Positions 24,053 through 44,068 of a DNA stretch of 64,000 nt are shown piece after piece. Position numbers and translations under genes: made by a program. This DNA is from Thermodesulfobacteriota bacterium (GTDB lineage Bacteria > Desulfobacterota > Desulfarculia > JACQYL01), in NCBI GenBank assembly GCA_963675595.2, contig CAXXLZ010000001.1:96001-160000 (forward strand). Direction: 5' to 3'. Position 1 is the stretch's first letter. Each line of letters opens with the position of its first letter. The notes beneath the pieces are model-generated. The model had not been told where the DNA came from, did not search any database, and saw nothing but the letters and a program-made list of their open reading frames with translations.

Positions 24053-24079
24053 GTAGGGGCGGACCACCGTGTCCGCCCT
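24053..24079 (+). repeat. GTAG-type REP palindrome
   Basis: GTAG-GGGCGGAC-caccgt-GTCCGCCC. Confidence 0.5.
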
Positions 24080-26685: not shown

Positions 26686-27270
26686 TAAATTATAGCTTAA
26701 TTTCAAAAATTGAAAAAGATAGATCAATTATAGAGACTATTAATGTTGGTGGTAGTAACAATCCAGGAATAGATGGTTTAGCAATAATAGTTAATGACCA
26801 TTTAGTTAATTCGCAAGAAGAAGTTGAATATTTCTACGATATTTTGGATAGGCTTGACGTTGAATTTATTTTTATACAATCAAAAACTTCAGACAAATTT
26901 GAAATGTCTGAAATCAATAATTTCATTTTCTCAGTTAAAAATTTCTTTTCTGAAGCTACGTTAAAATTTGAAGATCAAGTACTAAATTTAAGAGATTTGA
27001 AAGAGTTCATATATAAAAAGAGTATAAAGATGGATAAAAGCCCATCACTTAAACTATACTATGCTGCGTGTGGTACTTGGAAAAACGATCAAAATATTAC
27101 TTCATTAATCGAATCAGGAGAGAAAGAGCTAAAGGATACAGGATTATTCAACTCAGTTTCGATTTCTATTATCGACACAGAAAGAATTAAGAAACTATAC
27201 CCCTCTGTGCCAATGAGAGTGAGACACCTACCCGTTGATAAATTAGTGTAGGGCGGGTAGGAGATGGAGC

Positions 27271-27762
27271 ATGATGAGGCACAGAGAGAAAGAGAATCCG
27301 GATGAGGGAATCGTGGTAACGGAGGGAGTCCGTAGGACGACCGGAGTTACCACGATCGGGAAGCACGTCACGGTCCCCGACCCGGAGGTTCCAGAGAAGA
27401 AGCCTCGTCGCAGATTTACAGCCCGGTACAAGCTGAGAATCCTGGAGGAAGCCGATGCGTGTACTGAACCGGGCCGGCTCGGGGCTCTACTTCGGCGAGA
27501 AGGCCTGTATTCTTCGAGTCTGGCGACATGGCGTAGACAACGTGACCAGGGGCAGTTGAGGGCGCTTGGGCCAAAGAAGCGAGGCCGGAAGCCCAAGCAG
27601 AAGAACCCTATGGCAGAGCGGGTGGCCCGGCTTGAAAGGGAGAACCGCCGTCTCGAGAATCAACTGAAACAGGCGCGAACCATCATCGAAGTTCAAAAAA
27701 AAATCTCGGAGATACTGGGGATCGCTCAGCCGGACCTGGACGACGACGGGAGCAGTTCATGA
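27271..27762 (+). CDS. IS3-family OrfA
   Basis: RRRFTARYKLRIL HTH plus coiled coil; A-run near 27695-27703 is a candidate frameshift site. Confidence 0.85.
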   Translation: MMRHREKENPDEGIVVTEGVRRTTGVTTIGKHVTVPDPEVPEKKPRRRFTARYKLRILEEADACTEPGRLGALLRREGLYSSSLATWRRQRDQGQLRALGPKKRGRKPKQKNPMAERVARLERENRRLENQLKQARTIIEVQKKISEILGIAQPDLDDDGSSS

Positions 27763-28754
27763 GCGCGGCGATGGAGCTGCGCACCGAGGTGGGAACCGTG
27801 CAGGCATGTGGAGCCATGGGCCTGCCCCGTGCGAGTTTCTATCGCCGCCTGAAGCCGGCGGCGGCCCGCACACCTCGGCCGGCGCCTCCCTTGGCTCTGA
27901 ACCCCCAGGAGCGGGAAACCGTGGTCGATCTGCTTAACAGCTCCCGTTTTCAGGATGATGCTCCCCGTCAGGTCTTTGCCGTCTTGCTCGATGAAGGACA
28001 GTACTACTGCTCTATCCGGACCATGTACCGGATTCTCAAAGCGGAATCCGGTGATGTCAAAGAGCGAAGAAAGCAGGCGCGGCGGCCTGTCTATAAAAAG
28101 CCCGAGTTGCTTGCGACCGGACCCAACAAAGTGTGGTCCTGGGATATTACGAAGCTAAAAGGGCCTGTGAAGTGGACCTATTTCCATCTTTACGTGATCA
28201 TGGACATCTTCAGCCGCTACGTGGTCGGCTGGATGGTGGCCCATCGGGAAAGCGCCGCTTTGGCCAGGCAACTCATCGAAGAGACGTGCTTCAAGCAGGA
28301 TATCAAGTCCGGCCAACTCATCATCCATGCGGATCGAGGCCCGGCGATGAAAGCGAAGTCCGTAGCCGAGTTCATGGGAGACCTTGGAGTGACCAAGACC
28401 CACAGCCGACCCTATGTCAGCAATGATAACCCCTACTCGGAGGCGCAGTTTAAAACCCTCAAGTATTGCCCGAAATTCCCGAAACGGTTTGGATCAATCC
28501 AGGATGCCCGGTCTTTCTGCCGGGAGTTCTTCTCCTGGTACAACCCCGAGCATCGGCATTCAGGCATCGGGTTGGTCACACCCGAACAGCTCCATTACGG
28601 ACTCGCCCAGGACATTGTAGCGTGTCGCAGCCAAGTTCTTCGGGCTGCCTTCCGGAGCAACCCCAACCGTTTCAAAGGAAAGGTGCCACAGCCGCCAAAA
28701 TTGCCCAAGGCCGCGTGGATCAACAAACCGTCGAGCGATGACGTGAGAGTCTAA
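27759..28754 (+). CDS. IS3-family OrfB (integrase-core DDE)
   Basis: WSWDIT, DIFSRYVVGW, HADRG, DNPYSEAQFKTLK. Confidence 0.9.
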   Translation: MSAAMELRTEVGTVQACGAMGLPRASFYRRLKPAAARTPRPAPPLALNPQERETVVDLLNSSRFQDDAPRQVFAVLLDEGQYYCSIRTMYRILKAESGDVKERRKQARRPVYKKPELLATGPNKVWSWDITKLKGPVKWTYFHLYVIMDIFSRYVVGWMVAHRESAALARQLIEETCFKQDIKSGQLIIHADRGPAMKAKSVAEFMGDLGVTKTHSRPYVSNDNPYSEAQFKTLKYCPKFPKRFGSIQDARSFCREFFSWYNPEHRHSGIGLVTPEQLHYGLAQDIVACRSQVLRAAFRSNPNRFKGKVPQPPKLPKAAWINKPSSDDVRV

Positions 28755-30203
28755 TTTCTGAAAACAGGTGTCTCATTTTCATTGACACATTCCGTACAGA
28801 GAAATTAAGCATAAAATTACAAAAGAAATATATTTAGACAAACATACAATTTTACCAAAAATTGAGGGGGTCACTGAGTCTTATATTGGATATCTCCCTG
28901 TCCATGAATTTCTAAAGTTAGTTACTGACGAAGACGAGGAATTACTAAAAAGTGTTTTTTACGACAATGTGCGTGACTTCCAAGGTTTTAACTATGTAAA
29001 TAAGGAAATTAAAAACTCAGTTGAAAACACACAGTTAAATGACAAGTTTGTGCTTTTGAATAATGGAATAACAGTTGTAGCAAAAAGCGTCAACAAAGTT
29101 GGGACGGCATTTAAAGTAAACGATTTTCAAATTGTAAACGGATGTCAAACAAGCCATGTGTTGTATTACCTTAGAGAGAAGGTATCTGAAAGTTTGCAAA
29201 TACCGCTTAAATTGATTGTCACAGATAATCCAGATGTAACAAATAACATTATCAAGGCAACAAATCAACAAACAGAAGTCAAAAAAGAAGCTTTTGAAAT
29301 ACTATCACCATTCCATAAAAAAATCGAAGAGTTTTATTTGGCTTTTGAAAAGGAAGACAATAAGCGAATTTATTATGAAAGACGTTCAAAGCAATACGAC
29401 AATTCTAAAATTAATAGGATGTATATTATCACACTATCAACACAAATTTCGTCCTTTATTGCAATGTTTCTTAACGAGCCGCATAGTACGAAAAGGTATT
29501 TTGGCGAGCTGTTGCGGGCCTACAAAAATAGACTTTTTCAGGAAGATCACTCACCTTACCCATATTACACATCAGGGTTAGCATTCTATGTATTAGAAAC
29601 CTTTTATCGTGATAGAATTTTAGATCAGAAATTTAAACAGTTTAAACACCATCTATTAATGCTATTCAGGATAAAAGTCACAGGTGAAAAAATGCCACCT
29701 TTTTCAAGCAAGAAAATAGAAAGTTATTGTAATGAGCTTCTTAATATCCTATGGGATCGTAACAAAGCAAAAATGATATTCATTGAATTAGAAGGTGTAC
29801 TAACAAATACGTTTAACAAGTCAAAACTATTGAAACGACAAGCGCATGTTCTCCGATCATTCACAGAAGAATTAATACCTTCCTTGAAGTCTTGCAAGAA
29901 GATTGGGTCTGTTATTTATTATAATGATCTAAAAGGGTATGGATTTATCAGAATTGATGACGACCAAGATGATATATTTGTCCATGTATCTGAAGTCGAG
30001 CGTTCACTAAATCGCTCACATTTAAAAAATGGAGAAAAAATTAAATTCAGTATAATTGATACATACAAAGGGCCGCAGGCTAAGGAATTAGAAACATAAT
30101 AAATGTGTTAAAAAATAGGATAAGCACCCATTGTAGCTTATAATTCGGTTTCTAATATCAATGATAATAATGCAAGAAGCCTTAACTTAGGTCGATCGTA
30201 ATT

Positions 30204-30455
30204 TTGGAGCTGGTAAATATGAGAAAAAATGTATTTGTTTACATTTCGTCTGGAATTATTTTATTAATAGTTTTCATTATTACTGTTATCCCAACAATTA
30301 TTGGTGGATCGGAATTTCTTTATAATGAGGGATCTCTGAGAATATTATATGCAGCAATTAGTTTAGCGGTAGCAATGATTACATTTGGGGTCTTGGGCGA
30401 TTCCGGCGCATTGGTTAAATTCCAGCGACAAAAAGGAACTTTGACGAGTTCGTAA
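30204..30455 (+). pseudogene. Low-GC membrane protein fragment, probably truncated at ~30440 by a mobile-element end
   Basis: Two hydrophobic helices; frame ends just after TTGACGAGTTCGTAAAAA. Confidence 0.45.
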
Positions 30456-30751
30456 AAACCCCTTAACGAATTTATATAGCTGAAAACATAAGTAAAAATG
30501 GTATTTAAGGGTCGACTTCCTTCTTGGGCCTTGTATAATAAGCATCTGACAGGAGTTTAAGAGTTACCTGAGCAGAATAGTCTATAAGGGCTGTAAAAGC
30601 GGTAAGTTACGTTCTGAAAGTTTGTAAGACCCCACCGTCGTTCATCTGGAAACCGAAGGCGTGCAGGATTTGGGCCTGGATGTCGTTCGGTTGTTCGATC
30701 ATGCGGAGGGGTTTTCGTTTTGCCGGACTGAAGCAGAGGCAGGAGTGGAGT
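30440..30751 (-). mobile_element. 3' remnant of a transposase (IS1634-like C-terminus) cut by the adjacent IS3
   Basis: Minus-strand tail ..RMIEQPNDIQAQILHAFG..* stops at 30607 and begins abruptly at the IS3 boundary; family is inference. Confidence 0.45.
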
Positions 30752-30825
30752 TGGAATGCCCCCCGATAATTGGTCCATGTATAATGAGAGTCTGAATGCC
30801 CAAAGAACGGAAGGAGACTTTTTGC

Positions 30826-31107
30826 ATGGCCAAGAGAAAGAGACACAGCGCGGAGCAAATCATCCGGAAACTTGAAGACGCGGACCGTCGTCTGACGGCA
30901 GGGCAGACGATAGCGCAGGTTTGCCAATCGCTGGAGGTGAGCGAGGCGACGTACCACCGGTGGCGAAACCAGTATGGGGGGATGAAGGCTGAGGAGGCCA
31001 AACGGCTAAAAGAACTGGAAAAGGAAAATGCACGCTTAAAAAAGCTGGTCGCCGATCTGATGTTGGACAAGGCAATGCTGAAGGATCTTGCGGAGGGAAA
31101 CTTCTAA
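30826..31107 (+). CDS. IS407-group OrfA
   Basis: KRHSAEQIIRKL..SEATYHRWRNQYGGM..RLKELEKENARLKKLVA. Confidence 0.9.
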   Translation: MAKRKRHSAEQIIRKLEDADRRLTAGQTIAQVCQSLEVSEATYHRWRNQYGGMKAEEAKRLKELEKENARLKKLVADLMLDKAMLKDLAEGNF

Positions 31108-32006
31108 GCCCGGCGCGTCGTAGGAAAGCGGTTGATTATGTTCGAAGTGAACATGCCGCTTCAGAGCGTCGGGCCTGCCGCGTAGCCGGTCAACACCGAT
31201 CCACCCAACGTTATGAGCCGAAGGAACGGGACGATGAGGTGGAACTGATCAAGGCTCTTCACCGGTTGGTTGGAGAACATCCCCGTTTTGGATGCCGTAG
31301 GATCACTCGGCTGCTGCGTGATGCGGGGTGGGCGGTAAACTACAAGCGAATTCATAGACTTTGGAAAGAGGAAGGATTCAAGGTACCTCGAAAAGCCAAG
31401 AAGAAACGCTTCCTGGGAGTTGATGCCAATGCGTGCAACAAGCGTAAGGCGGCTTTTGCAAATGATGTCTGGACGTTGGATTTCATTCATGACCGCTTGG
31501 TCGACGGCCGTCAGTTCAAGTGCTTGGCCATTGTCGACGAGTTTACTCGGGAAAACCTGGCCCTGAGGATCAACCGCTCCATTACGGGTGAAGACGTTTT
31601 GAACGAGCTGAGCCGATTGATGGGCGAGCGGGGAGTTCCAACGGGCATTCGATCGGATAACGGTCCCGAATTTATAGCCCAAAAGGTGAGAAACTGGCTG
31701 AAAGACCTGGGAGTGGGAACCCTTTTCGTCGAGCCGGGAGCCCCTTGGCAGAACGGGTACGTGGAAAGTTTCAACAGCCGTTTTCGGGATGAATTCTTGA
31801 ACATGGAAATTTTCAACAACATCAAGGAAGCGCAGACTCTGGCCGCCAAATGGCGGAAAGCCTATAACGAGGAAAGACCGCACAGTGCATTGAATTACAT
31901 GACCCCGGCCCAGTTCGCGGCGAGCCCTTGGGGCCTCGACTCCGCCTCGCTCAGCTCGGCTTCGCCGAGGCCCCAAGGGCCGGGGATGGAAAACCGCGAG
32001 TCATGA
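31104..32006 (+). CDS. IS407-group OrfB (probably expressed by -1 frameshift)
   Basis: WTLDF, IVDEFTRE, RSDNGPEF, PWQNGYVESFN; GGGAAACTTCTAAG frameshift region. Start approximate. Confidence 0.85.
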   Translation, partial: LSPARRRKAVDYVRSEHAASERRACRVAGQHRSTQRYEPKERDDEVELIKALHRLVGEHPRFGCRRITRLLRDAGWAVNYKRIHRLWKEEGFKVPRKAKKKRFLGVDANACNKRKAAFANDVWTLDFIHDRLVDGRQFKCLAIVDEFTRENLALRINRSITGEDVLNELSRLMGERGVPTGIRSDNGPEFIAQKVRNWLKDLGVGTLFVEPGAPWQNGYVESFNSRFRDEFLNMEIFNNIKEAQTLAAKWRKAYNEERPHSALNYMTPAQFAASPWGLDSASLSSASPRPQGPGMENRES

Positions 32007-32550
32007 TAAAACTCTCATAACTCCTGGACCAAAAACTGGGGGCTTGACAGGGTCCCCTGTGCGAATCTCGATTGGATCGGGTTCACCGCCCGGGAGTAGG
32101 CCGCGGGAAGCATGCCGTAAGTCATGGGAAACCGCCTTTTCGTGATGAGTAGGATATCATGGGAAAGGCAAGTTACGTGCCTTTGCGGGGCATGGATTCC
32201 AGTTCGGCGGAAAGCCTTACGGGATGAGGCATAGGGCAATTTTGCGAGTGGTGATTCGGAATTACCCTATGGAAATGGTTTCCCGGTTTTGGTGGAAGGA
32301 GGAAAATCTTGCCCTTGGATGTTCATGGCCTCTCGGACCGCTGGGGATTGATACCAACGCCGTCCGGATCTCTTCGGCCGTCCGTTTTGGGAAGGGACTT
32401 TCGTCGGCCGGCCGTATTCGCGGGGAACGCCTTTACCGCAGGGCCCTTGGTACGGGCGTCACCCGCCGGCACGTGACGAAACCGAACTGGGGAGATTTCT
32501 TGCCGGGACCGAAAACGACCAGCGGCATGGTCCTCCGGGAACGCCGGCTC

Positions 32551-33021
32551 CTAATCGGCCTGAAGCGGGCGGCATCGAGTCCAAACCAACGAACCGACGA
32601 TCTCTCGGCCGCCGCTTTGAATCGGCGGGGTTCGAAGGACGAGCGTGTCCCCGGAGATTTCGTAGTACCGCACCTGGGGTTCGCCGATCCAGTTGGGGAG
32701 CAAACTTGCCGTAACCCGGTGGGTGACGGTTTCGGCTTGGGGATCCACGGTGAAGGAACCGAAGTAGGCCACGTAGCCCTCAAACGCCTCCCGGATTTCC
32801 TCCGTGGTGCCGGTGCGTTGATCGCCCGACGCCAGAGGGGGCCGGCCGGGGCGCATCAATTGAGCGGCCATATTGCCGCAGGCGTCGTAAATGAGCAGCC
32901 CCTGCGGGTCTTCTCCCAAAGGAAAGGATGTTTCGCCGCCGGTCACGTAAAATTCGGCGGATACCAGTCGCCAAGTGCCGATAAACGGGGCGGCCGCTTT
33001 GGCGGTGAGGCTGGTTTGCAC
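32551..33021 (-). CDS. Lipocalin-like domain protein
   Basis: IGTWRLVS..PLGEDPQGLLIY..GNM..YVAYFG..LVWTR; GTG start with AGGAGG RBS. Confidence 0.75.
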   Translation of the reverse strand: MQTSLTAKAAAPFIGTWRLVSAEFYVTGGETSFPLGEDPQGLLIYDACGNMAAQLMRPGRPPLASGDQRTGTTEEIREAFEGYVAYFGSFTVDPQAETVTHRVTASLLPNWIGEPQVRYYEISGDTLVLRTPPIQSGGREIVGSLVWTRCRPLQAD

Positions 33022-33199
33022 GGGGTGTCCTCCTATGTCGAAAATGGTGATCATTCGTCCCCTTCGAGTTGCCCGGAAAGTCCCATAGTGCGGGTTTGTC
33101 GCGCGCCGTCGGGATGAAGCCCGCATGAGGGGAGCCGGGGGAGCATGAGGTCCACGGCGATCCTGCGAACAAATCTCCGATGGCGATTTCTGCAGTACC

Positions 33200-33529: not shown

Positions 33530-33807
33530 GGGGTCGCTCCTGTTTCACGGCTGTTCACGGCATCATCAAAGCCAAGTCTGCTGTTACAATGACTCGAAGG
33601 TTCCCGAGTCCGATATTCGTCACGTCGGGGCTCAACCCCGCCGGCCGGGAGCCGTGAGGCGCGCCTTCGGTCCATTTGTCCAATCTTTTGTGCTTCTCAC
33701 CCTGCAACATAAGCACGCGATCGACTCCCGAGTCGTCTCACAGACCCTCGGGGGTCGCTCCGCCTGAGGCGGTGCGGCCGTGTTTGGAGAATTTGCGGGG
33801 GGGCCGG

Positions 33808-33833
33808 GGGGGCGCTTTTTAAAGCGCCCCCCT
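33808..33833. terminator. GC-rich hairpin downstream of pylD
   Basis: GGGGGCGCTTT-tt-AAAGCGCCCCC. Confidence 0.5.
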
Positions 33834-33850: not shown

Positions 33851-34693
33851 CTATTCCGCGTCGGCGAGCACCACGCTGTGCACGGCCATGACGGCCACGC
33901 CCAGGGCGAGGGGTTCGTGAATCAGGCGGTCGCCGAGCAAAGCTTCGGCTTTGGGCGTGAGACCGTGGGGCACGCCTGGGGAAGCCACGATGGTGGTGGA
34001 TCGCACCATGGTTTCGGCTAGAATGCCGGCGGCCGGGGTGGCGTCCAGAATGTAGTTTATGGTTCGGCAGGCCTCCGATAGGTCGTCTACCGGAGTCGCC
34101 CGGGGCCAGGCTTTGATGAAGTCCACCAGCCGAGCCTGGTTGACTTCGCGTACATAAACTTTTGCGCCCAACCGGATCAGCGCGTCCACGGCATAGGTTC
34201 CCACGGGTCCTAAGCCCAATACCAACACTTCCTTGCCGGCGATGCCGTCTTCCCGGAGGTTCACGGCTCCGGCCAAGGCCTGGACGAAACCGTGGGCCGT
34301 GGCCCACGCGTTGTCCACGGTACGCTTCATGGGCATGTTCACGGCCAAGAACCGGTAATCGTCGGACGCGAAAAGCACGTCGGCGCGGCTTTCAATCGCT
34401 TCGGCAAATCCTCCCACGTCCATTTGTCCCATGATCTCGGGCCGCATGTCCAGGTGCCTGAGCACGGCGCATATGGCCTCGGCGAAACCGGGGATCACTC
34501 CTTGGCCGGAAGACATGGTAATGACCGCGGCGGAGGATTTCCTGAGGAGGTCTTTGACGCGGGTCAACGGAGCATTCACGGTACGGGCGGCGATGCCCAG
34601 GAGGTCGAAGCCGGTTCTTCTCTTCAGGTCCCCGTCCAGGGCGTTGAGGGAAACGGGAATGTCTTTGATCAAGTCGTGGTATAGGCGGGTCAC
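33851..34693 (-). CDS. pylD: Pyrrolysine synthase (3-methylornithyl-N6-L-lysine dehydrogenase) homolog
   Basis: MTRL..TG.DL.GIA, GQGVIPGFA, DVGGFAEA, ASDD.RFLA, DN..ATA.GFV, Rossmann GLGPVG, SPGVPHG, IHEPLALGVAVM. Confidence 0.88.
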   Translation of the reverse strand: MTRLYHDLIKDIPVSLNALDGDLKRRTGFDLLGIAARTVNAPLTRVKDLLRKSSAAVITMSSGQGVIPGFAEAICAVLRHLDMRPEIMGQMDVGGFAEAIESRADVLFASDDYRFLAVNMPMKRTVDNAWATAHGFVQALAGAVNLREDGIAGKEVLVLGLGPVGTYAVDALIRLGAKVYVREVNQARLVDFIKAWPRATPVDDLSEACRTINYILDATPAAGILAETMVRSTTIVASPGVPHGLTPKAEALLGDRLIHEPLALGVAVMAVHSVVLADAE

Positions 34694-34704
34694 AAGGGAT
34701 TCTC

Positions 34705-35853
34705 CTATTCGTCCGGAGGGGACGGGTCCAGAAGGGTTTCACACCGGAATGCTTCGAGCAGGTTCTGAATCGCCCGGTCTCTCTTTTTCCGAGCGAGGTC
34801 TTCGGTATCTTCCACGATGACGGCCGTGGCCTCCCAGGCGAGAGGATTCCTCTGACAATTGGAGATGAACTCGTGGAAGCCAAAGGCGTTGGACATCACG
34901 GCCAAATGCCCCGCGTTTGCCAGGATGTGCTCTCCGGACACCTCGATGGTCTTGTCGCGCTGGCGAAGATGTTCGTAGATCACGGCCTTGCCGCGGGTCC
35001 CTGCGGGCAGGGGATCGGGCGGACGGCCCGACGTCCAATATCGGGCCAGGAGTTCGACCATGTTGATACCGGTGGAATGGAACACCGCGGTGGGGGTCTG
35101 GCTCGGAAGCCGGGCGTCGATTTCAAGGACCTTAAGGCCGTCATCCGGAGACATGACTTCGATGTCCATGATGCCGGAGAGATTCAGTGCCGAAGCGATT
35201 CGCTCGCCCAACCGTCGGAATTCGGCTTCCACTTCCCTGCCGGTGGCGGGTCCTGCCAAGACCCTTTTGCAGTCGTAGACCGCGTCGAATTCCAGTTCGG
35301 TGACCTGGAACCCAACCGCGCGTCCCCGATGCGCCATGACTTCCAGGGAAAAGGAAGGCCCTCCCACAAATTGCTGGATGACCACTTCCTTCCCCAGTTC
35401 GGCAAGCGCTCGGTTCAGGGTTTCCTCGTTGAAAACTCTGCTCACGCCGGTGCTGCCGCTGGATCCGGAAGGCTTGACGATCACCGGAAACCCGCACTGA
35501 GGCCAGGGGTCGGGGGTGGGAATCTCGGCGGACGCGAACAACTCGTTGGATCGAAGTTTGGACGAAGTGACCCGGTAGGACGCAAGGTCCAGGGCCAGGG
35601 GGACTCCCAGCCGGCGGGCCGTTTCATCCAGGTAGGTCAGGGTCTCGATGTTTTCCGTGGCCGGAAGAATGCAATCAAAGGATGGGAGCACGCCTTCGAG
35701 GTCTTGCACGGCGGAATGGAGGAATCGGTCGGCAACTCCGCGTGCCGGAGGTTCGACATCCCGGTCCACCACCGTGGTTTCAAATCCCGCCTTGCGAGCC
35801 AGATACGCCGCCTCCAGGCCCTGGAGTCGGCCGCCGACGATGCAGAGTTTCAT
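34705..35853 (-). CDS. pylC: 3-methylornithine--L-lysine ligase (ATP-grasp) homolog
   Basis: IVGGRLQGLEAAYLARKAG, PATEN, SSKLRS, VKPSGSSGSTGV, YDCKRV, GIMDIEV, LEIDARLPSQTPTAV, VSGEHI. Confidence 0.9.
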   Translation of the reverse strand: MKLCIVGGRLQGLEAAYLARKAGFETTVVDRDVEPPARGVADRFLHSAVQDLEGVLPSFDCILPATENIETLTYLDETARRLGVPLALDLASYRVTSSKLRSNELFASAEIPTPDPWPQCGFPVIVKPSGSSGSTGVSRVFNEETLNRALAELGKEVVIQQFVGGPSFSLEVMAHRGRAVGFQVTELEFDAVYDCKRVLAGPATGREVEAEFRRLGERIASALNLSGIMDIEVMSPDDGLKVLEIDARLPSQTPTAVFHSTGINMVELLARYWTSGRPPDPLPAGTRGKAVIYEHLRQRDKTIEVSGEHILANAGHLAVMSNAFGFHEFISNCQRNPLAWEATAVIVEDTEDLARKKRDRAIQNLLEAFRCETLLDPSPPDE

Positions 35854-35857
35854 GAAA

Positions 35858-37351
35858 TCATCTTCCCGTTAATTCGGCCATAACCGTGTCTCCCTCCGGG
35901 GACCGACCCAGCCTGACCTTTTGTCCGACCCGGTTTTCCGCACAAAGGGCGTTCATGTCGTCCGGACGGGCGGGTCCGTTGGCCAAGAATCTCAGACCGG
36001 GCTCGGTTCTTCCGTAAATGATGGAGTACGCCGGGGAACCGTCCCGCGAGAACACCACGGTGTAGGTTTCGATGGTTCCTTCCCCCGAGGGAGCGGGATC
36101 GAACGGCACGGGCGGGTCTCCCACCAGAAAATTTTCGCGGTCCTCCAAATCGTGAGCGCCGATGTCCGAGTCCGACGGCCGGACTCCATAGACGCCGGCC
36201 GCGTGTTTGTGCATGAACCAGCCGAGCCCCGTAACCATGCCGTTTTCGAGGCGACCTGCAGCGATGTCTTCAGCCAAGGTGGCCACGGAGTGCAGCACGT
36301 AGCTGTTTCCCGGGCCGCCGAAAAAGCCGAGTCCTCCGGTGAGGGTCAGAGGACGGGGGTCTTCCGACGTGAGGCCGAGCATCTTCCGGGCCATGAGAAC
36401 CGCGCAGGGAAAGCAGCTGTAAAGATCGAAGGCTTGGATGTCCTCGAGGCGCATGCCGCTCCGTGCCATGGCTTTTTCCGCGGCGGAGAGCAGGGGAGGG
36501 GACGATGTGAAATTCGTTTTTTCCACCAGGAAGCGCCGGCGGTCTTGGGCGTATCCTCCTCCCAGGAAATAGACGGGGTTTTCTCCCTTGGACCTCCAGG
36601 GAGCCGCTTTGGCTTCAGAGGTCAGCAGTACGGCCGCTCCCATGTCCACGGTTAACAGGGACGTCATGTATTTGGTGTACGGGAAGGTCACCCATCGGTT
36701 TTGGGGGGTGGGCGTCATGATCTCGTTAGGGGTTCTGGGGCTTCGGGTCCATGCATGGGGGTGAGCTGCCGCCACCCGGCTGAACCCGGCCCAGAGTTCC
36801 GCAACACGGGCTCGGTGGGATGCGATGTCCCCTCCTGAGGACTCCGCGGCCAAGGCCGTTTCAAACAGAGGAAAACCATGGATGGGCTGAAACATTCCGT
36901 GCCGGGTTTCTTCGGGAGTCGACCCGATCATGTCGTCGGTGAGGTCTTCCGAGTCCAGCCCTTGCATGAGGCGGTTGTCGCCGTCGGAGACGCGGGAACG
37001 GTAGGTCTCGGCGCCGGCTACCAGGGCGGTCTCCAATTCGCCTCTCGCGATCATGCCCGCGGCCGTGTTGATAAGGGATTGCGGTGTGTTGCCTCCGATC
37101 CGGGCCACGGTCTTAAAGCGGGGAGATGCGCCCAGCCTTTCCGCAAGTTCTCCGGCCGCGTCACGGTACGGAACGCTCATGGTTCGGGTCAGGAAGATTC
37201 CGTCCAGGGAGGTCCGGAGATTTGGGATTCCTGCGCGCTCGAAAGCTTCCAGGGCGGCCTTGTGCATGAGGCCCAAGGGATCGAGGCCTTCGGAGTCCTC
37301 TTTTCTCTGAGTGATTTGCGCCCAACCGGGCAGGACAATTCCGGGTTTCAT
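35858..37351 (-). CDS. Thiolase-like (acetyl-CoA acetyltransferase family) protein with C-terminal extra domain
   Basis: GGNTPQ, DLYSCFP, TLTGGLGFFGGPGNSY, C-term TIETYTV; stop lies 4 nt upstream of the pylC ATG. Confidence 0.8.
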   Translation of the reverse strand: MKPGIVLPGWAQITQRKEDSEGLDPLGLMHKAALEAFERAGIPNLRTSLDGIFLTRTMSVPYRDAAGELAERLGASPRFKTVARIGGNTPQSLINTAAGMIARGELETALVAGAETYRSRVSDGDNRLMQGLDSEDLTDDMIGSTPEETRHGMFQPIHGFPLFETALAAESSGGDIASHRARVAELWAGFSRVAAAHPHAWTRSPRTPNEIMTPTPQNRWVTFPYTKYMTSLLTVDMGAAVLLTSEAKAAPWRSKGENPVYFLGGGYAQDRRRFLVEKTNFTSSPPLLSAAEKAMARSGMRLEDIQAFDLYSCFPCAVLMARKMLGLTSEDPRPLTLTGGLGFFGGPGNSYVLHSVATLAEDIAAGRLENGMVTGLGWFMHKHAAGVYGVRPSDSDIGAHDLEDRENFLVGDPPVPFDPAPSGEGTIETYTVVFSRDGSPAYSIIYGRTEPGLRFLANGPARPDDMNALCAENRVGQKVRLGRSPEGDTVMAELTGR

Positions 37352-37540
37352 GACGGTTTCCTATGTGGCTTCATCCGGAGTATCGGGGTCCGGGGTGTTG
37401 AGAGGGAGCATGAGCGTCGCCTGGTCAAAATAATCGATGGAACCGTTCCAATGCAAGTTGCCCGGAGCTCGGACGGCGAGTCTATGAACGGTTCAGGGAC
37501 ACGTACGAGGTTAGGCGAGGGAGCCCGGGTACGGGGAACT

Positions 37541-37571
37541 CCAAAGGGAGCCGAAGTCAGGCTCCCTTTGG
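37541..37571. terminator. Hairpin terminator between the VWA gene and the thiolase-pylCD unit
   Basis: CCAAAGGGAGCC-gaagtca-GGCTCCCTTTGG. Confidence 0.65.
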
Positions 37572-37621
37572 AGAGTCGAGGCGATTCGCACGGGTCGGTA
37601 TTTCGCTCCCGGAGCGGGCTT

Positions 37622-39922
37622 TCAGGTCGTCAGCCGTTTGTACATGGCGGGCAGCACCGTGGGCAACTGCTCCGCTTTGGGAACGATAATGCTTTGAGTT
37701 TGAGGACAGATGAGTTTCATGTACTCGGAGCCTTTTTGGTCCGAGGTGATGATGAAGGGATGGATTCGGTGTCGTCGGGCTTCTCTGAGGGCTCTGTGGG
37801 TATCGGCCACGGCATAGCTCAAGGTGCCGTATTCCAGATCGTACGGGCGTCCGTCGGTCAGGATGACCATCAGCTTGATGAGAGCGGGCACTGCGTTGAG
37901 CTTGTAGATACCGTGTCGGATCGCGGTGCCCAGGCGGGTGAAATGCTTGGGCTCGAGATTCCCGAGACGGTATTGGGCCTTTTCCCCGTAAGGCTCACCG
38001 AAATCCTTCACCGTGAACAGGTCCACTCGGTAACGACCTTCCGAGGTGAAGCCGAAAATGGCGAAGGGGTCTCCCACCGAATCCAGCGCTTCCGCCATCA
38101 GGACCATGGCTTCTTTCTGCAGATCGATGACCCTTCGTCCGCCCACCATTTCTTCGGTGGAACCGCTCATGTCCACGAGAAACAGAACGGCCACATCCCG
38201 GGATCGTTTGTCCCGCCGGATGTACACGCTGTCCGTTAAAGGTCCGCCGGCTTTCATCTCGACAATGGCCGGAATCAGGGCTTCCCAGTCGAGATCGTCG
38301 CCGAACTCCTGGGCGCGAAGCTTTCGGAACTGTTCGGGCTTCAAGCGGAGAAACTGTCTTCGAATCAGGTTGATCAGTCCGTGAAGACGGTTCCTCACGT
38401 CCGCGGCAAACGCGTTGGGTTCGTCCTTGGCCATACGTTGCCGCACCAGACACCAGTCGAGCTTGTAGTCCGAAAGACCGGTGTCCCATTCCTTGTACAT
38501 GAAGGTCTTGAAGGATTCTTCGAGCTCTTCGGCTTCCGGTGAAAGGAATTCAAGGTTGTCGAAAGCCTCTTGAAGGTCGTCCCAAATCCCTTTGAAATCA
38601 CGCTTGCCCTCGGCCATCATGAAGGTGAGCAGAGCTTCCACCACGGCCGGCGGCAGATCGTACTTCTCCTCGGCCTTCATGAGGACTTTTTGAATCAGAC
38701 CGTCGGTGTCTTTGACGAGATGGGGAAGGAGGTCCCCCCACCACGGCATGGGGCGAATGATTTCAGTCTCCGGATCGTCCGAGTATCCTTCCGGCAGGTC
38801 GGGCTCGGCCAGACGCTTCATTTCGGCGAGGAGGGCGGGGAGTTTTTTCAGAAGCCGCTGGTCCGCCTCCACATGCGTCCGGGTGGGGTGGACCCTTCGA
38901 GACATATCCCGCCAGTCCATGGCTTCGAGCAAAGCGGCCTGGTGCAGTGCCATGAGCTTGAACAATCCCAACCGGGGAACCACCTCGGGGAGAAAAATGG
39001 TGCGTCCGTCCGTGGCGGGCCCTCCGGTGAAGCCCTGGACTCCAATGAGGGAGTTGTTGGATCGGATTTTCACCCGCCGTCCGAGGTAGGCCTCGCACAT
39101 GAGGGACAGCATGTTCGCTCGATCCTGGAGCACGATTCCGGAGGTCAAGCTGTCGCGTTTTTCCAGGGACTTGAAGGTCGTGCCGCTGAAGTAGCCCACC
39201 AGTTCTTCTTCCGAGCGGCTGTCCTCGAGTCCCTGATCGACCCAATTGACGGTTTCGGAATCGTTCAGAAGCAGGCAAACACGTGTTCCCAGGCGAATAA
39301 AGGCTTCGGCCGCGGAAGCGGCGCGCAGGGAAATCCTCTCCGCCTGGTCCAGAAGGAAATTCCAATGTTCAAGAGGGGTCGCGCACTGATCGGATACCGC
39401 CTCTTCGAGATAGGCCTTGACGGCCCGGCCCATGCGGCGGCCCGCCTTCAAGGCTTCGATGGCCAGTTCGCCCCAGAGCATCACGTGTTCCGGCCCGAAA
39501 CTTCTGACCGCGGCCGGCGTGTGTTTAAGGAACGCGGAAGCGCATTCCACGTCGGAGTCGGCCATCCGGACGGCGAACAGGGTCCATTCTTCGATGGCGA
39601 CCTCAGTGGAGGATACGGCGCTCACGCTTTCAAAGTAAGACGAGGTCATGGTCCAATTTCGGACCGCGAGACGTTTGGCTCCCCTGAGAATCAGCGGGGT
39701 TGAGGGGTTGCCCCTCAGATTTTCGATGTTGTGGAAAGTACTGATAAAAAAGTTGGTCGCCATGCGGGACCTGAGATGGGCGATGGAGCCGCAGATTCTC
39801 AGATAGGCGTCATGGGTACCGTTGGGCAAACGCTGCAGGATGTCCGGATGGGACCTGAGGAATTCCGTCAGGGAACTCATGCGGACGCGGGAATAAGTTC
39901 GACAGGGAGAGAGAATATCCAT
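37622..39922 (-). CDS. NorD/CbbO-type VWA-domain protein
   Basis: PATDGRTIFLP, YKEWD..DY, MIDAS VDMSGST, TRLGTAIRH, LTDGRPYD. Confidence 0.88.
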   Translation of the reverse strand: MDILSPCRTYSRVRMSSLTEFLRSHPDILQRLPNGTHDAYLRICGSIAHLRSRMATNFFISTFHNIENLRGNPSTPLILRGAKRLAVRNWTMTSSYFESVSAVSSTEVAIEEWTLFAVRMADSDVECASAFLKHTPAAVRSFGPEHVMLWGELAIEALKAGRRMGRAVKAYLEEAVSDQCATPLEHWNFLLDQAERISLRAASAAEAFIRLGTRVCLLLNDSETVNWVDQGLEDSRSEEELVGYFSGTTFKSLEKRDSLTSGIVLQDRANMLSLMCEAYLGRRVKIRSNNSLIGVQGFTGGPATDGRTIFLPEVVPRLGLFKLMALHQAALLEAMDWRDMSRRVHPTRTHVEADQRLLKKLPALLAEMKRLAEPDLPEGYSDDPETEIIRPMPWWGDLLPHLVKDTDGLIQKVLMKAEEKYDLPPAVVEALLTFMMAEGKRDFKGIWDDLQEAFDNLEFLSPEAEELEESFKTFMYKEWDTGLSDYKLDWCLVRQRMAKDEPNAFAADVRNRLHGLINLIRRQFLRLKPEQFRKLRAQEFGDDLDWEALIPAIVEMKAGGPLTDSVYIRRDKRSRDVAVLFLVDMSGSTEEMVGGRRVIDLQKEAMVLMAEALDSVGDPFAIFGFTSEGRYRVDLFTVKDFGEPYGEKAQYRLGNLEPKHFTRLGTAIRHGIYKLNAVPALIKLMVILTDGRPYDLEYGTLSYAVADTHRALREARRHRIHPFIITSDQKGSEYMKLICPQTQSIIVPKAEQLPTVLPAMYKRLTT

Positions 39923-39930
39923 GATCGCTG

Positions 39931-40773
39931 TTAGAAGATGCCGCCGACGATTTCGGAAATCGCTTCCTGCATTTCGGGATCGTCGGTCATACAGCGGGTG
40001 ATGGCGGCTTCACAAGCAACGGCCGGAGCGAGGCCGCGGGCCATGAGTTTTCCCGCGTAGACCAGCAGGCGCGTACTGACCCCTTCCTCGAGACCGTGTT
40101 GCCGCAGGTTGCGCACCATGTCGCCCAATCGAACGAGACGCGCGGCGGTTTCTTCGTCCACGCCGGATTCCTTGCGGACGATTTCCTGTTCCTTTTCCGC
40201 CGGCGGATAGCTGAATTCCAATGCCACGAATCGTTGACGTGTTGAATGCTTCAAATCCTTCATCACGCTCTGGTACCCCGGATTATAGGAGATGACCAGA
40301 AGGAAATCAGGATGGGCTTCCAACAGCCGCCCGCGCTTCTCCTGGGGCAGGATCCTCCGATCGTCGGTCAAGGGGTGAATCACCACCGTGGTGTCTTTGC
40401 GGGCTTCCACCACTTCGTCGAGATAACAGATGGCTCCGTTCTTCACCGCCAGGCTCAAGGGTCCGTCCGTCCACTCGGTCTCTTGCTTCTTCAGGAGAAA
40501 CCGGCCCACCAAGTCCGAGGCGGTCAAATCCTCATGGCAGGATATGGTGACCAGAGGGCGGGAGAGCCTCCAAGCCATGTGTTCCAGAAATCGAGTCTTT
40601 CCGCACCCGGTCGGCCCCTTGAGCATAACGGGCAACTTGATGTCATAGGCCTGTTGGAACACCTCCAACTCATCTCCAATGGGGAGGTAGAACGGTTCTT
40701 TGGGCAGATAGTAATGCTCGATGGCCACCTCGTGCGAGGCCTTCAGGGGTCGTGATGTACCGGTCTGCTGCAC
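39931..40773 (-). CDS. CbbQ/NirQ/NorQ (MoxR) AAA+ ATPase
   Basis: [57 protein letters not shown]. Confidence 0.93.
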
Positions 40774-40919
40774 AGCTGCTCCTTCCGATTCTTCTATAAC
40801 TGCGGAGAATTAGCGGGGACGGCCACGCTTACCGTCCCTTTTCCATACAAGTCAAGTATAGACGACGTCCGGCGCCTCTTCAAGAAGGTTCGAGAAATAG
40901 GGGGGACTTGGGTGCAAGA

Positions 40920-40955
40920 AGGCCGCCGTTGCACGGACGCGCGCAACGGCGGCCT
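40920..40955. terminator. Hairpin downstream of the MtaA-like gene
   Basis: AGGCCGCCGTTGC..GCAACGGCGGCCT. Confidence 0.6.
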
Positions 40956-40982
40956 CGCTGAGGCTTGGAAAGGCCCGAGAAC

Positions 40983-42023
40983 TTAGTATTTGCCGTAAAG
41001 CTCCGCGGCCTCCATCATGGCGATGGCGTTCATGATGGAACCGTTGGGCGGATACTCACACCCGGTGGCGAGGATGAAACCGCCGCCTTTGCCCAGTTCC
41101 TCGATCTCGCGCTTGCATTCCTCCCTCATGTCCGCGGGGGAACCAAGAAACGCGTACTGAGCCGGATTGACATAGCCGCAAAGGCAGGTCTTGTCCCCCC
41201 ATTTTTCTTTGGTTTCCTTCATGTCCTTACAGTCGTCCGGCGTGTAGGCGAAGGAAATGGCCACGGGCTGCATGGTTTCTATCTGCACGTCGAAATAGAT
41301 GCCGTTGCCGCAGTTGTGAACCATGACCATGGCGCCTCCCTCGCGAACCGCGTCGGCGATCCGCTTGGCGAAGGGGCCTTCGATTTCTTTCCAAAGTTCC
41401 TTCTTCATGATGCACTGGGAAGCAAACAGGGTATCCAGCACCACGGCATGCACCCCGGTCTTGGTCATGGCCTTGATATAGTCCACCAACACGTCGGTGA
41501 TTACTTCTTCCGCGTGCATCACCGCTTCCTTGTTCTTCATGCAGTCCCGGAAGAGACGTTCCGCGCCTCGCATCATGGAGAGAATTCCCAAAGGGCCGTA
41601 AACGAATCCCATGATGGGCACGGTGGCGCCGCGTTCGTTCATGAGAACGTCGCAGTATTTGACCATTTCATTCATTCGGGGGGCCTTGGCCACATCGATG
41701 CGTTCCACTTTGTAATAGTCGTCGGGAGACTTGATCAGAGGATTGTCGTAGTTGGGATGCGGGGTGTCTTCGATGGGGAACACCACTTCCTGGCCCAGGT
41801 CCGCCGCCTCCACGGACAGGTCCACAAGGGTGAGCACGCCGTCGAAGCCGATGAGTTCCTGTGCCTGAAGCATGCACTTCGCGGCCAGCTCTCCGTCCTG
41901 TGCCCATTCGGCGTAGGTGACTCCGTAGACTCGCCTGGAGGCTCCGCAAACGAGGGGAGCCGCGGGTACGCGATCCGCTTCCTTGAACTGAAGGGCTGTG
42001 GCCACGCGTTCCAAAGATGTCAT
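40983..42023 (-). CDS. UroD/MtaA-CmuA family (methylcobamide:thiol methyltransferase-like) protein
   Basis: MTSLERV..DRVP, VEAADLG, GFVYGP, Zn-type HNC (MVHNCG) and GFILATGCEYP. Confidence 0.82.
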   Translation of the reverse strand: MTSLERVATALQFKEADRVPAAPLVCGASRRVYGVTYAEWAQDGELAAKCMLQAQELIGFDGVLTLVDLSVEAADLGQEVVFPIEDTPHPNYDNPLIKSPDDYYKVERIDVAKAPRMNEMVKYCDVLMNERGATVPIMGFVYGPLGILSMMRGAERLFRDCMKNKEAVMHAEEVITDVLVDYIKAMTKTGVHAVVLDTLFASQCIMKKELWKEIEGPFAKRIADAVREGGAMVMVHNCGNGIYFDVQIETMQPVAISFAYTPDDCKDMKETKEKWGDKTCLCGYVNPAQYAFLGSPADMREECKREIEELGKGGGFILATGCEYPPNGSIMNAIAMMEAAELYGKY

Positions 42024-42193
42024 ATTGTCCTCCTGTTTCGCCCGAATGGGGCGGGAAAATGGTAACGGTGGTTTCCCGGAGTTTAGACAACTTAAATTGT
42101 TTTAACATAAAAATAGGTATATTGAAAATAAACCTCTCCCTTACCGCCCGAACGCCTTGGGGGGAGGGGGCCCGGGTGGGAAAAGAGCCTTAC

Positions 42194-42343
42194 CGGCCCG
42201 CTGAAGAAGTCGGATTACGGCAGACTGTCAAGAACGATGACATGCAAGGCGCGTAAATCTCGAGGAAGGAGGCGTACGTGGAAGTACGGCGCAATGACGA
42301 GGGACGAAGCGCAACGCCGAAGATCGTGTTTATCGCCGGCCTG
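42194..42343 (-). repeat. MITE-like repeat, copy 4
   Basis: Reverse complement aligns with 19368-19518; begins right after the stop at 42344. Confidence 0.75.
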
Positions 42344-42931
42344 TTACCGGATTCGGTCGAGGATCGTATCGATACCTCGACCGTTTTTGAGGCTTAAAGG
42401 AATGACTCCCGAAACCACCGGATCTAAAATCTTCGAAATCCTGTGGAGACCGGACTCATCCAGTGTTTCCGAATGACTGAGGGCCACCAGATCGGCGCCG
42501 TCGATCTGGCCGGTAAGCAGCAGACGCTTCTCCAACCAGTGTTTGTCGAAATCCGCACCGTTCACCAGAGTGATGAACGTCCCGGTTTCGTATTTCACGT
42601 CCCGTCGAGCCATGGCACAGACCATCTGCAATTCTCGAGTCACCACCAGGCCCGACGGTTCGACAAAGATGTAGCCGAACTCCCCGGTTCTGACAATCTC
42701 CTTAAGGCGAACCGCAAAACTGGACGCCAGTGAACAGCCCAGTCATCCGCCCCGAAGACGCTCCATGTAAACCGCGTGGTCGTCGACGAAACTCTGATCG
42801 TAAGCTTGCTCGCCCTCTTCGTTGACGATGACCGCGGACCGGGATCCCTCCCCGTGCAGTCGGGAAATTAATTCCCTGATCAAAGTCGTTTTTCCGCTTC
42901 CCGTAACGCCGGATATGGGGATCACCTTCAT
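42344..42931 (-). CDS. Selenocysteine-containing CobW/G3E-family GTPase (Sec at codon 63)
   Basis: ORF-track fragments 42743-42931 and 42344-42646 are in one frame: GVTGSGKTT..VNEEG..RGG-U-LGCS..FVEPSG; TGA at 42745-42743 aligns with the first Cys of GGCICC in the neighbouring paralog. Confidence 0.88.
42709..42742 (-). promoter_or_regulatory. Candidate bacterial SECIS element
   Basis: After UGA: CU-GGGCUGU-UC-ACUGG-CGU-CCAGU-UUU-GCGGUUC; apical loop starts 16 nt after UGA and has G at position 2 followed by U. Confidence 0.7.
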
Positions 42932-43449
42932 GGTTCGGGGTCCGCCTCCTGTTCCGTATCCTTGAACTGCTCTTCCAGTTGTTTGATGAAATCCTGTTTT
43001 GAGGCGGTGAAATCGAATTCGTCGAAGTAGGTGTGTTCCTTTTCCTTGTCCACGGTGAGGCCTCTACCTTCGGCGATCTCGTGGATTCCTTCCAGAGTGG
43101 CCGCTTTCACTTCCTCTTCACGGATACCCTGTACGATGCTGTTCACGGCCATATACAGCTCCGCCACCGGATGGGAGAGGTGTCCGGAAGAATACGCGCC
43201 GTGGGAGACTCCGATGGTATCCGCCTTCATGGTTCCGGCTTCACTCATGATGTGCGATTTGATGTGCCCGATGCAGCGGGCGCCCCGGGCCATACATTTG
43301 TTCGCGATGGAAAGCATCATGGTTTCAGCCAGATTCTTTATCTGGGTCTCATCCAGAGGGGTGGGATGACTCACTTTCACCGCGACACCGTACCCACTCA
43401 CTCCGTGTTCGGTATAACAGCCCTTTTCCGCCGTCAAGGGGTCCGTCAT
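42928..43449 (-). CDS. Hypothetical protein, CobW C-terminal-like (IGHIK motif)
   Basis: 173 aa, GARCIGHIKSH; stop overlaps start of the Sec GTPase (ATGA). Confidence 0.7.
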   Translation of the reverse strand: MTDPLTAEKGCYTEHGVSGYGVAVKVSHPTPLDETQIKNLAETMMLSIANKCMARGARCIGHIKSHIMSEAGTMKADTIGVSHGAYSSGHLSHPVAELYMAVNSIVQGIREEEVKAATLEGIHEIAEGRGLTVDKEKEHTYFDEFDFTASKQDFIKQLEEQFKDTEQEADPEP

Positions 43450-43453
43450 GGCC

Positions 43454-44068
43454 TTACTCCTTCCATGTCATGATGAGCTCTTTGACCCGATCCACTCCTT
43501 CACCGGAAAACGTGGACAAACGAAGGAGCTCCGCATCGGGATTGAGTTCTTTGATCTTGCTTTCCGTACCGTCCAAAGTGCCCGGGTCCACAGCGTCCAC
43601 TTTGCTTACGGCAACGACATTGGCGTCTTTGACCTGCGTAGTGACGAGTTGGCCCAGGGCGTCCATATCCAACAGCTCGGCCGGTCGGGTGGCGTCGAAT
43701 AGAACAATGGCCGGTCCGAGGGCGATCTTGGCGTCGCGTCCCCCCATCCTTGCGGCCAACTTGACCTGATGAGGAACGGCCACCCCGGTGGGTTCCACCA
43801 GCACGTGGTCGGGGTTGAATTCCCGGTAAAGGGCGTAAATCGTCTTGGCGAACGTGGCGGCGACTTCGCAGCAGATGCATCCTCCTCCGATATCCTTAAC
43901 TCGGAGTCCGGTTTCTTCGATGATTTTTCCGTCAACGGGAATCTCTCCGATTTCGTTGACCACAAGCGCGACTTTCTGTTCTCCGTGTCCGGCCAATTCC
44001 CTGGAAAGCCTCAGCAGCAAAGTGGTCTTTCCACAACCCAAGAATCCTGCGATCTGCGTGATTTTCAT
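43454..44068 (-). CDS. CobW/HypB/UreG (G3E) GTPase, nucleotide-binding domain only
   Basis: AGFLGCGKTT, VVNEIG, GGGCICC, VEPTG, SKVD; start placed at ATG 44068. Confidence 0.9.
   Translation of the reverse strand: MKITQIAGFLGCGKTTLLLRLSRELAGHGEQKVALVVNEIGEIPVDGKIIEETGLRVKDIGGGCICCEVAATFAKTIYALYREFNPDHVLVEPTGVAVPHQVKLAARMGGRDAKIALGPAIVLFDATRPAELLDMDALGQLVTTQVKDANVVAVSKVDAVDPGTLDGTESKIKELNPDAELLRLSTFSGEGVDRVKELIMTWKE

What the first reader, a model, noticed from the sequence alone, without database searches (positions are those of the whole stretch)
33851..37351. Orphan pylC-pylD with a thiolase-like gene in the position of pylB
Full-length PylC and PylD homologs are tightly linked (4-nt and 11-nt gaps) behind a thiolase-like gene, in a unit bounded by hairpins at 37541 and 33808. 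In the canonical bacterial order pylT-pylSc-pylB-pylC-pylD-pylSn, radical-SAM PylB precedes pylC and pylSn follows pylD; none of these is in the window, and both pyl genes end in TAG. Either pyrrolysine synthesis is split across loci, or PylC/D have been recruited to a PylB-independent pathway, for example ligating D-ornithine or a thiolase-derived acyl unit to lysine. PylC/D are known to make pyrroline-carboxy-lysine from D-ornithine without PylB. The thiolase-like protein has GGN where classical thiolases carry the nucleophilic Cys, so its chemistry is unclear.
Basis: partly seen in the sequence, partly recalled or inferred. Interest (0 to 1): 0.85.

Follow-up and report, generated by a model that had tools for sequence, protein, structure and literature searches.

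The report
Detached pylC-pylD behind a thiolase-like gene
Two genuine pyrrolysine-biosynthesis genes (pylC, pylD) sit in a tight operon behind a catalytically odd thiolase-like gene, far from the rest of the pyrrolysine machinery; it is most likely a broken-off piece of a known cassette rather than a new pathway.

Summary
Three minus-strand genes, 4 and 11 nt apart, encode a TLP1-type thiolase-like protein, PylC and PylD. PylC and PylD both score above NCBI's curated equivalog cut-offs. No pylB, pylS, tRNA-Pyl or methylamine methyltransferase lies anywhere in the 64 kb window.

- The missing thiolase cysteine is a trait of the whole TLP1 family, not a peculiarity here.
- TLP1 relatives are about ten times more numerous than PylD relatives.
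- None of the 71 PylD loci fetched from other genomes has a TLP1 gene; 62 of them have pylB.
- The window's PylC is sister to six canonical tRNA-Pyl–pylSc–pylB–pylC–pylD clusters.
- It has an ordinary branch length and keeps all four D-ornithine-binding residues.
- Split pyl clusters also occur in genuine Pyl systems, including three Thermoleophilia loci with tRNA-Pyl.

My reading: this is a detached pylCD module with canonical chemistry, fused into an operon with an unrelated lineage-typical gene, beside an IS-rich island. Whether pylB, pylS and pylT lie elsewhere in the genome could not be tested.

A TLP1-coupled, PylB-independent pathway is not excluded (about 0.15). Interest is moderate.

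The parts
35858..37351 (-). TLP1-type thiolase-like gene (497 aa; stop TGA), first gene of the unit
   Evidence: Pfam TLP1_add_C 49 bits. NCBIfam PRK08257.1-3 scores 382 bits, below its cut-off of 654. PDB 4egv E 7e-57; IGGN aligns with MsTLP1 IGGQ; YSCF and GGL motifs are kept and NGG is not. The 120 best homologs are 49-59% identical and about 498 aa long.
34705..35853 (-). [quoted passage not shown]
   Evidence: TIGR03909 364.5 bits against cut-off 248.3. PDB 4ffl E 2.4e-51. S169, E171, D230 and T253 match the four D-ornithine-binding residues. The protein deviates at 2 of 64 conserved columns. It is sister, with support 100, to six canonical loci.
33851..34693 (-). pylD, 3-methylornithyl-N6-L-lysine dehydrogenase homolog (280 aa; GTG start, stop TAG), 11 nt after pylC
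   Evidence: TIGR03911 181 bits against cut-off 150. Pfam PylD_N 83.7 bits. PDB 4j43 E 7.5e-21. All 30 invariant columns of alignment A1 are kept. The protein deviates at 6 of 51 columns that are at least 90% conserved.
37539..37573 (-). 14-bp perfect hairpin after the stop of the upstream VWA gene, 187 nt before the TLP1 start
   Evidence: -29.7 kcal/mol, z -5.6, 0 of 200 shuffles fold as well. No U-tract follows. Not listed by the terminator scan.
33807..33832 (-). 11-bp G+C-rich hairpin 19 nt after the pylD stop
   Evidence: Read. Fold z -1.5, 18 of 200 shuffles fold as well, no U-tract.
37352..37538 (-). untranslated leader or promoter region of the unit
   Evidence: No sigma-70-like site. 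No sigma-54-like site here. No Rfam match at E up to 1.

Best explanation
The unit is a detached pylC-pylD module of the pyrrolysine cassette. It keeps its canonical chemistry and has become fused, in this poorly sampled lineage, into one compact operon with a lineage-typical TLP1 gene that is not its functional partner.

Shown: the three genes are intact, tightly spaced and compositionally at home. PylC and PylD are orthologues of the pyrrolysine enzymes and keep the D-ornithine pocket.

Inferred: PylC ligates (3R)-3-methyl-D-ornithine (or D-ornithine) to the N-epsilon of L-lysine using ATP. PylD oxidises the delta-amine with NAD, and the product cyclises to pyrrolysine (or desmethylpyrrolysine).

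Inferred: the precursor and the decoding genes (pylB, pylS, pylT) are either elsewhere in the genome or lost. I put those two at roughly even odds. The separation most likely arose by rearrangement next to the IS-rich, low-GC island that starts about 2 kb downstream.
For: - PylC and PylD pass curated equivalog cut-offs.
- The window's PylC is sister (SH-aLRT 100) to L001-L004, L006 and L007. Its end branch of 0.61 lies within that clade's range of 0.09-0.63.
- All six of those loci have PylSc and PylB directly upstream of pylC and a tRNA-Pyl.
- The four D-ornithine-binding residues of PylC are conserved.
- PylC deviates at 2 of 64 conserved columns; 14 of 60 sequences deviate as much. PylD deviates at 6 of 51.
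- No TLP1 homolog is present in any of the 71 PylD loci.
- TLP1 has more than 3226 relatives against 337 for PylD. Its named close relatives are Desulfobacterota.
- Two distant plasmid homologs of TLP1 lie in acyl-CoA clusters.
- Split pyl arrangements exist in real Pyl systems. L031, L046 and L055 have pylC-pylD-tRNA-Pyl with no pylB within 10 kb. L056 has mtmB-pylC-pylD. L005 and L049 lack pylC between pylB and pylD.
- GC3 of the three genes is 0.72-0.77, close to their neighbours' 0.65-0.76.
- IS3- and IS110-type elements and a 32.5% GC gene lie at 19.8-32 kb.
Against: - The 4-nt junction with a Shine-Dalgarno-like stretch and the bracketing hairpins look like a selected three-gene operon, which usually means shared function.
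- No pylB remnant remains at the junction.
- No PylB on a contig of the home contig's length (1,781,447 bp), or of 68,790 bp, is among the 120 best PylB relatives. That leans toward pylB being truly absent.
- PylD is in the most deviant 11 of 177 sequences, with T59 where 99% of the others have P.
- The nine closest PylD relatives (P0005-P0012, P0018) are metagenome proteins whose gene context could not be seen. A conserved TLP1 linkage in the true sister group is therefore not excluded.
Confidence: 0.58

Rival explanations
1. A new PylB-independent pathway in which TLP1 is a working partner. For example, TLP1 would use an acyl-CoA to make or modify the substrate or product of PylC/PylD, yielding a free lysine-derived pyrroline metabolite rather than a genetically encoded amino acid.
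For: - Tight three-gene operon bracketed by hairpins.
- All three genes intact and compositionally at home, suggesting long retention.
- No pylB, pylS or pylT in 64 kb.
- No PylB seen on the home contig among the 120 listed hits.
- PylD is moderately deviant.
- The context of the nine closest PylD relatives is unseen.
Against: - 0 of 71 PylD loci have TLP1.
- The TLP1 family is far wider than Pyl.
- The window's TLP1 is an ordinary family member, deviating at 10 of 175 conserved columns; 19 of 117 sequences deviate as much.
- PylC's D-ornithine pocket is unchanged.
- PylC's branch is not accelerated.
- M. smegmatis TLP1 showed no thiolase activity and has no known function (PMC3406046 passages), so no chemistry links it to the pathway.
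Confidence: 0.15
2. A silent relic. The rest of the cassette was lost and pylCD are no longer used. They are still intact only because too little time has passed.
For: - An IS-rich, rearranged neighbourhood.
- No partner genes in the window.
- PylD shows more departures from conserved columns than most relatives.
Against: - Both ORFs are full length with no frameshift or internal stop.
- 62 of 64 and 45 of 51 conserved columns are kept.
- GC3 matches the host, which argues for long residence under selection.
- Compact junctions with ribosome-binding stretches.
Confidence: 0.15
3. PylC/PylD paralogs with changed substrates, not ornithine plus lysine, that only look like Pyl enzymes.
For: - PylC has A48 where 97% of relatives have D.
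- PylD has T59, D82, M88 and S110 at columns conserved in 95-99% of the others.
Against: - Both score above equivalog cut-offs.
- The four D-ornithine-binding residues are kept.
- The proteins nest inside the Pyl clade rather than outside it.
Confidence: 0.08

Closest known systems
pylTSBCD pyrrolysine cassette (bacterial form tRNA-Pyl, pylSc, pylB, pylC, pylD), as in loci L001-L004, L006, L007
   Same: pylC followed directly by pylD. Both are orthologous at 46-56% identity, and the D-ornithine pocket is conserved.
   Different: pylB is replaced at the upstream position by a TLP1 gene. There is no pylSc, no tRNA-Pyl, no corrinoid protein and no close MtaA within 26-33 kb on either side.
Split pyl loci in Thermoleophilia (L031, L046, L055) and Methanomassiliicoccales (L056)
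   Same: pylC-pylD with no pylB within 10 kb and another gene in the upstream position.
   Different: In the Thermoleophilia loci the upstream gene is a nitroreductase and tRNA-Pyl follows pylD. L056 has mtmB beside pylCD. The window has no Pyl marker at all besides pylCD.
Thiolase-like protein type 1 (TLP1) of Mycobacterium smegmatis, PDB 4egv
   Same: Same domain set (thiolase fold plus TLP1 C-terminal domain). No nucleophilic Cys. YSCF and GGL motifs are kept.
   Different: The NGG motif is not kept. About 35-40% identity by eye over the aligned part (not computed). The window's closest relatives are Desulfobacterota proteins at 49-59% identity.
Engineered PylB-free route: D-ornithine plus PylC/PylD gives desmethylpyrrolysine (pyrroline-carboxy-lysine)
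   Same: The same two enzymes without PylB (PMC11467909 passages).
   Different: That route is a laboratory feeding experiment in E. coli. No natural D-ornithine source, such as a racemase, was seen in the window.

Membership tests
PylC (TIGR03909, 3-methylornithine--L-lysine ligase) | Score above the curated equivalog cut-off over the full length | tested here: met
   364.5 bits against 248.3; residues 3-369 match model positions 2-374 of 374.
PylC (TIGR03909, 3-methylornithine--L-lysine ligase) | D-ornithine-binding residues S177, E179, D233, T256 (M. barkeri numbering as given in PMC10176472) | tested here: met
   These are S169, E171, D225 and T248 in the 4ffl chain. They align with window S169, E171, D230 and T253. 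The mapping was done by hand from the printed alignment.
PylC (TIGR03909, 3-methylornithine--L-lysine ligase) | ATP-dependent ligase activity on 3-methyl-D-ornithine and lysine | not testable with these tools
   Needs an enzyme assay.
PylD (TIGR03911, 3-methylornithyl-N6-L-lysine dehydrogenase) | Score above the curated equivalog cut-off, with PylD_N domain and Rossmann GxGxxG | tested here: met
   181 bits against 150. PylD_N 83.7 bits. G160, L161, G162, V164 and G165 are among the invariant columns.
PylD (TIGR03911, 3-methylornithyl-N6-L-lysine dehydrogenase) | Conservation of family-wide conserved columns | tested here: inconclusive
   45 of 51 columns that are at least 90% conserved are kept. 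Six deviate, including T59 where 99% have P. 11 of 177 sequences deviate as much.
Complete pyrrolysine system (pylT, pylS, pylB, pylC, pylD plus Pyl-containing methyltransferases) | pylB, pylS and tRNA-Pyl clustered with pylCD | tested here: not met
   None in 64 kb. As a positive control, ARAGORN found tRNA-Pyl in 9 of the 11 loci scanned.
Complete pyrrolysine system (pylT, pylS, pylB, pylC, pylD plus Pyl-containing methyltransferases) | pylB, pylS, pylT and TAG-interrupted mttB, mtbB or mtmB anywhere in the genome | not testable with these tools
The only indirect hint is that none of the 120 listed PylB relatives lies on a contig of the home contig's length.
TLP1 (thiolase-like protein type 1) | TLP1 C-terminal domain; nucleophilic Cys replaced; YSCF and GGL motifs | tested here: met
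   PF18313 at 49 bits. IGGN aligns with IGGQ, and YSCF and GGL are present. The motifs are as named in PMC3406046.
TLP1 (thiolase-like protein type 1) | NGG motif in place of the thiolase CxG | tested here: not met
   The window has GLGW where MsTLP1 has ANGG.
Classical thiolase (acetyl-CoA acetyltransferase) | Nucleophilic Cys (Cys89 of Z. ramigera) and NCBIfam equivalog scores | tested here: not met
   No Cys at that position. The best NCBIfam score is 382 bits against a cut-off of 654.

The most novel reading that the evidence does not exclude
TLP1-pylC-pylD is a self-standing three-gene cassette of a Desulfobacterota-like lineage. It would make a free pyrroline-lysine metabolite, such as an acylated or otherwise modified (desmethyl)pyrrolysine, without PylB, PylS or tRNA-Pyl. 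That would be the first natural use of the pyrrolysine enzymes outside genetic-code expansion, and the first functional context for the orphan TLP1 family.
Probability: 0.15. Interest if true: 0.8.

Novelty: new variant of a known kind. Interest (0 to 1): 0.4.

Why it matters
pylD has been treated as a signature of the pyrrolysine trait (PMC1976440 passages). A well-kept pylCD pair with none of its partners nearby bears on how the cassette breaks up, moves and decays. If the partners prove absent genome-wide, it would raise the question of whether the two enzymes have a life outside code expansion. It also shows that pylD alone can mislead automatic calls of 'Pyl-decoding organism'.

Tried and rejected
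- **Contig lengths as a proxy for context.** I compared 'longest_contig' values between the hit lists. Many PylD relatives share a contig length with a PylB hit (for example 18121, 14587, 9865, 55443).
  - One PylD/TLP1 coincidence appeared: P0078 and P0223, both 4249 bp. I rejected it because P0078 is 91% identical to the PylD of L010, which has pylB upstream.
  - A second coincidence (3113 bp) comes from different sources.
- **pylB or pylS remnants in the window.** tblastn up to E 10 found none.
- **PylSn.** I had no query for it. The ORFs next to pylD in L004 and L006 matched no NCBIfam model, and the small ORFs beside the window's pylD matched none either. PylSn therefore stays unchecked by homology.
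- **Sigma-54 promoter before TLP1.** None found. The window total of 24 matches compares with 26 expected by chance.
- **Riboswitch or other RNA in the leader.** None found.
- **PylD on plasmids.** No match.
- **ESM Atlas for TLP1.** It only confirmed the family.
- **The listing of cluster members.** Not answered, because the database was off. Names and accessions of cluster members stayed unseen.
- **Literature.** Searches for orphan pylCD or a thiolase link found nothing relevant. In one search none of the 20 listed of 26 papers held 'thiolase'. One search returned 2 papers, seen as listing only. PMC3529041 is not held.
- **Not run.** No complex prediction or structure prediction was run, since no binding claim is made.
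Full report
**What is there.** Three minus-strand ORFs occupy 33851-37351. The first (35858-37351, 497 aa) matches Pfam TLP1_add_C. It also matches the crystal structure of Mycobacterium smegmatis thiolase-like protein type 1 (4egv, E 7e-57). It scores 382 bits on NCBIfam PRK08257.1-3, below that model's cut-off of 654.

The second ORF (34705-35853, 382 aa) scores 364.5 bits on TIGR03909 PylC, cut-off 248.3. The third (33851-34693, 280 aa) scores 181 bits on TIGR03911 PylD, cut-off 150, and carries Pfam PylD_N.

The gaps are 4 and 11 nt. Each downstream start is preceded by a Shine-Dalgarno-like stretch. Both pyl genes end in TAG, but so do 10 of 41 family-supported genes in the window.

Hairpins lie at 37539-37573 (14 bp, z -5.6) and 33807-33832 (11 bp, z -1.5). 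Neither has a U-tract, and neither was called a terminator by the scan.

**What is missing.** The window has no tRNA gene and no Rfam match. ARAGORN did find tRNA-Pyl in 9 of 11 related loci scanned as a control. tblastn with PylB, PylSc, a Pyl-type corrinoid protein and MtaA from relatives found only a weak match, 21% identity, of MtaA to the URO-D gene at 40983-42023. Reading TAG through gave no interrupted methyltransferase.

**The thiolase-like gene.** The 'GGN instead of Cys' is real. However, MsTLP1 has Gly at that place, lacks thiolase activity, and shares the altered YSCF and GGL motifs with its homologs (passages of PMC3406046). The window protein keeps YSCF and GGL but not NGG.

TLP1 has more than 3226 relatives. 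The best 120 are 49-59% identical and about 498 aa long. Those that carry names are from Desulfobacula, Desulfobacterales, Desulfarculaceae and Deferrisomatales. PylD has 337 relatives.

The window's TLP1 is an ordinary member. It departs from 10 of 175 conserved columns, and 19 of 117 sequences depart as much. Two distant plasmid homologs at 33-35% identity lie among acyl-CoA genes.

**PylC and PylD.** The best PylD relative other than the window's own cluster is 54% identical. A profile scan of genome contigs returned 71 loci. Across those loci:
- 0 of 71 hold a TLP1 homolog, 67 hold PylC and 70 hold PylD.
- 62 hold PylB and 42 hold PylSc.
- Of the nine without PylB, four end at the contig edge or lack pylC (L029, L030, L032, L067) and one is not a PylD locus (L071).
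- The other four have at least 8.7 kb upstream with no pylB: L031, L046, L055 and L056.

In the three Thermoleophilia loci the order is aldehyde:ferredoxin oxidoreductase, ferredoxin, nitroreductase, pylC, pylD, tRNA-Pyl. L056 has mtmB pieces next to pylCD. L005 and L049 have pylB next to pylD with no pylC between them. Split cassettes therefore occur in real Pyl systems.

In the PylC tree of 60 rows, the window is sister (support 100) to L001-L004, L006 and L007. Its end branch of 0.61 lies within that clade's range. All six have tRNA-Pyl, pylSc and pylB upstream.

In the PylD tree of 177 rows, the window falls in a 10-row clade (support 96). The other nine rows are metagenome proteins P0005-P0012 and P0018.

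PylC departs from 2 of 64 conserved columns and PylD from 6 of 51. 14 of 60 and 11 of 177 sequences respectively depart as much. The four D-ornithine-binding residues of M. barkeri PylC, named in PMC10176472 (passages), align with identical residues in the window protein.

**Surroundings.** Upstream on the same strand, beyond the hairpin, lie:
- a VWA protein and a CbbQ-type AAA+ protein;
- a URO-D/MtaA-like protein;
- a CobW-related selenoprotein with an in-frame TGA;
- an unknown ORF and a second CobW-like GTPase;
- a sigma-54 activator.

Downstream lie ynfA and then a low-GC, IS-rich island. GC3 of the three genes (0.72-0.77) resembles their neighbours. The sister loci have pylCD at 49-60% GC.

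**Home genome.** The window's PylD cluster is on a 1,781,447-bp contig. Among the 120 best relatives of the L004 PylB, all at least 59% identical, none is on a contig of that length or of 68,790 bp. This is only a weak hint that pylB is absent. The list is cut at 120 of 4043 hits, and the genome probably has other contigs.

**Reading.** The evidence fits a detached pylCD module with canonical chemistry, fused with a lineage-typical TLP1 gene (confidence 0.58). A TLP1-coupled new pathway (0.15), a silent relic (0.15) and changed substrate specificity (0.08) remain possible.

UAG is often used as a stop in the Pyl-decoding D. hafniense (PMC1976440 passages). The frequent TAG stops in the window therefore decide nothing.

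No paper on orphan pylCD or a thiolase link turned up.

Noticed in passing
window 42344-42931 (-), within 37622-46187: A CobW-related selenoprotein gene with an in-frame TGA (GGULGC; NF041053 251 bits against cut-off 180). It lies in a minus-strand cluster with a second CobW-like GTPase (43454-44191), an unknown 173-aa ORF, a divergent URO-D/MtaA-like gene (40983-42023), a CbbQ-type AAA+ gene (39931-40773), a 766-aa VWA protein and a sigma-54 activator (44745-46187). The function of the cluster is unknown.
   Followed up: partly
window 19773-32006: A rearrangement-prone stretch. It holds an IS110-type transposase (19773-20891) and two IS3-type pairs (27271-28754 and 30796-32006). It also holds an AIPR plus cold-shock-domain protein of only 32.5% GC (28969-30099), inside a low-GC island.
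   Followed up: partly
L031 8122-10990; L046 7719-11111; L055 7490-12264: Three Thermoleophilia loci have nitroreductase-pylC-pylD-tRNA-Pyl, preceded by aldehyde:ferredoxin oxidoreductase in L031 and L055 (with a ferredoxin in L031). None has pylB within 10 kb. This is a recurrent pylB-less arrangement in genomes that do carry tRNA-Pyl.
   Followed up: partly
L005 7967-10822; L049 285-3357; L038 13-2508: Other non-canonical pyl gene orders. L005 and L049 have pylSc-pylB-pylD with no pylC between. L038 has pylD-pylB-pylC.
   Followed up: no
window 1537-2454 (-) and 12886-13503 (-): Two separate genes in one window match the PrmA methyltransferase family.
   Followed up: no
window 25174-26685 (+), 32224-33117 (+), 51517-53229 (+), 62132-64000 (+): Long ORFs with no Pfam match. 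The first three also have no NCBIfam match. Whether they are real genes was not examined.
   Followed up: no
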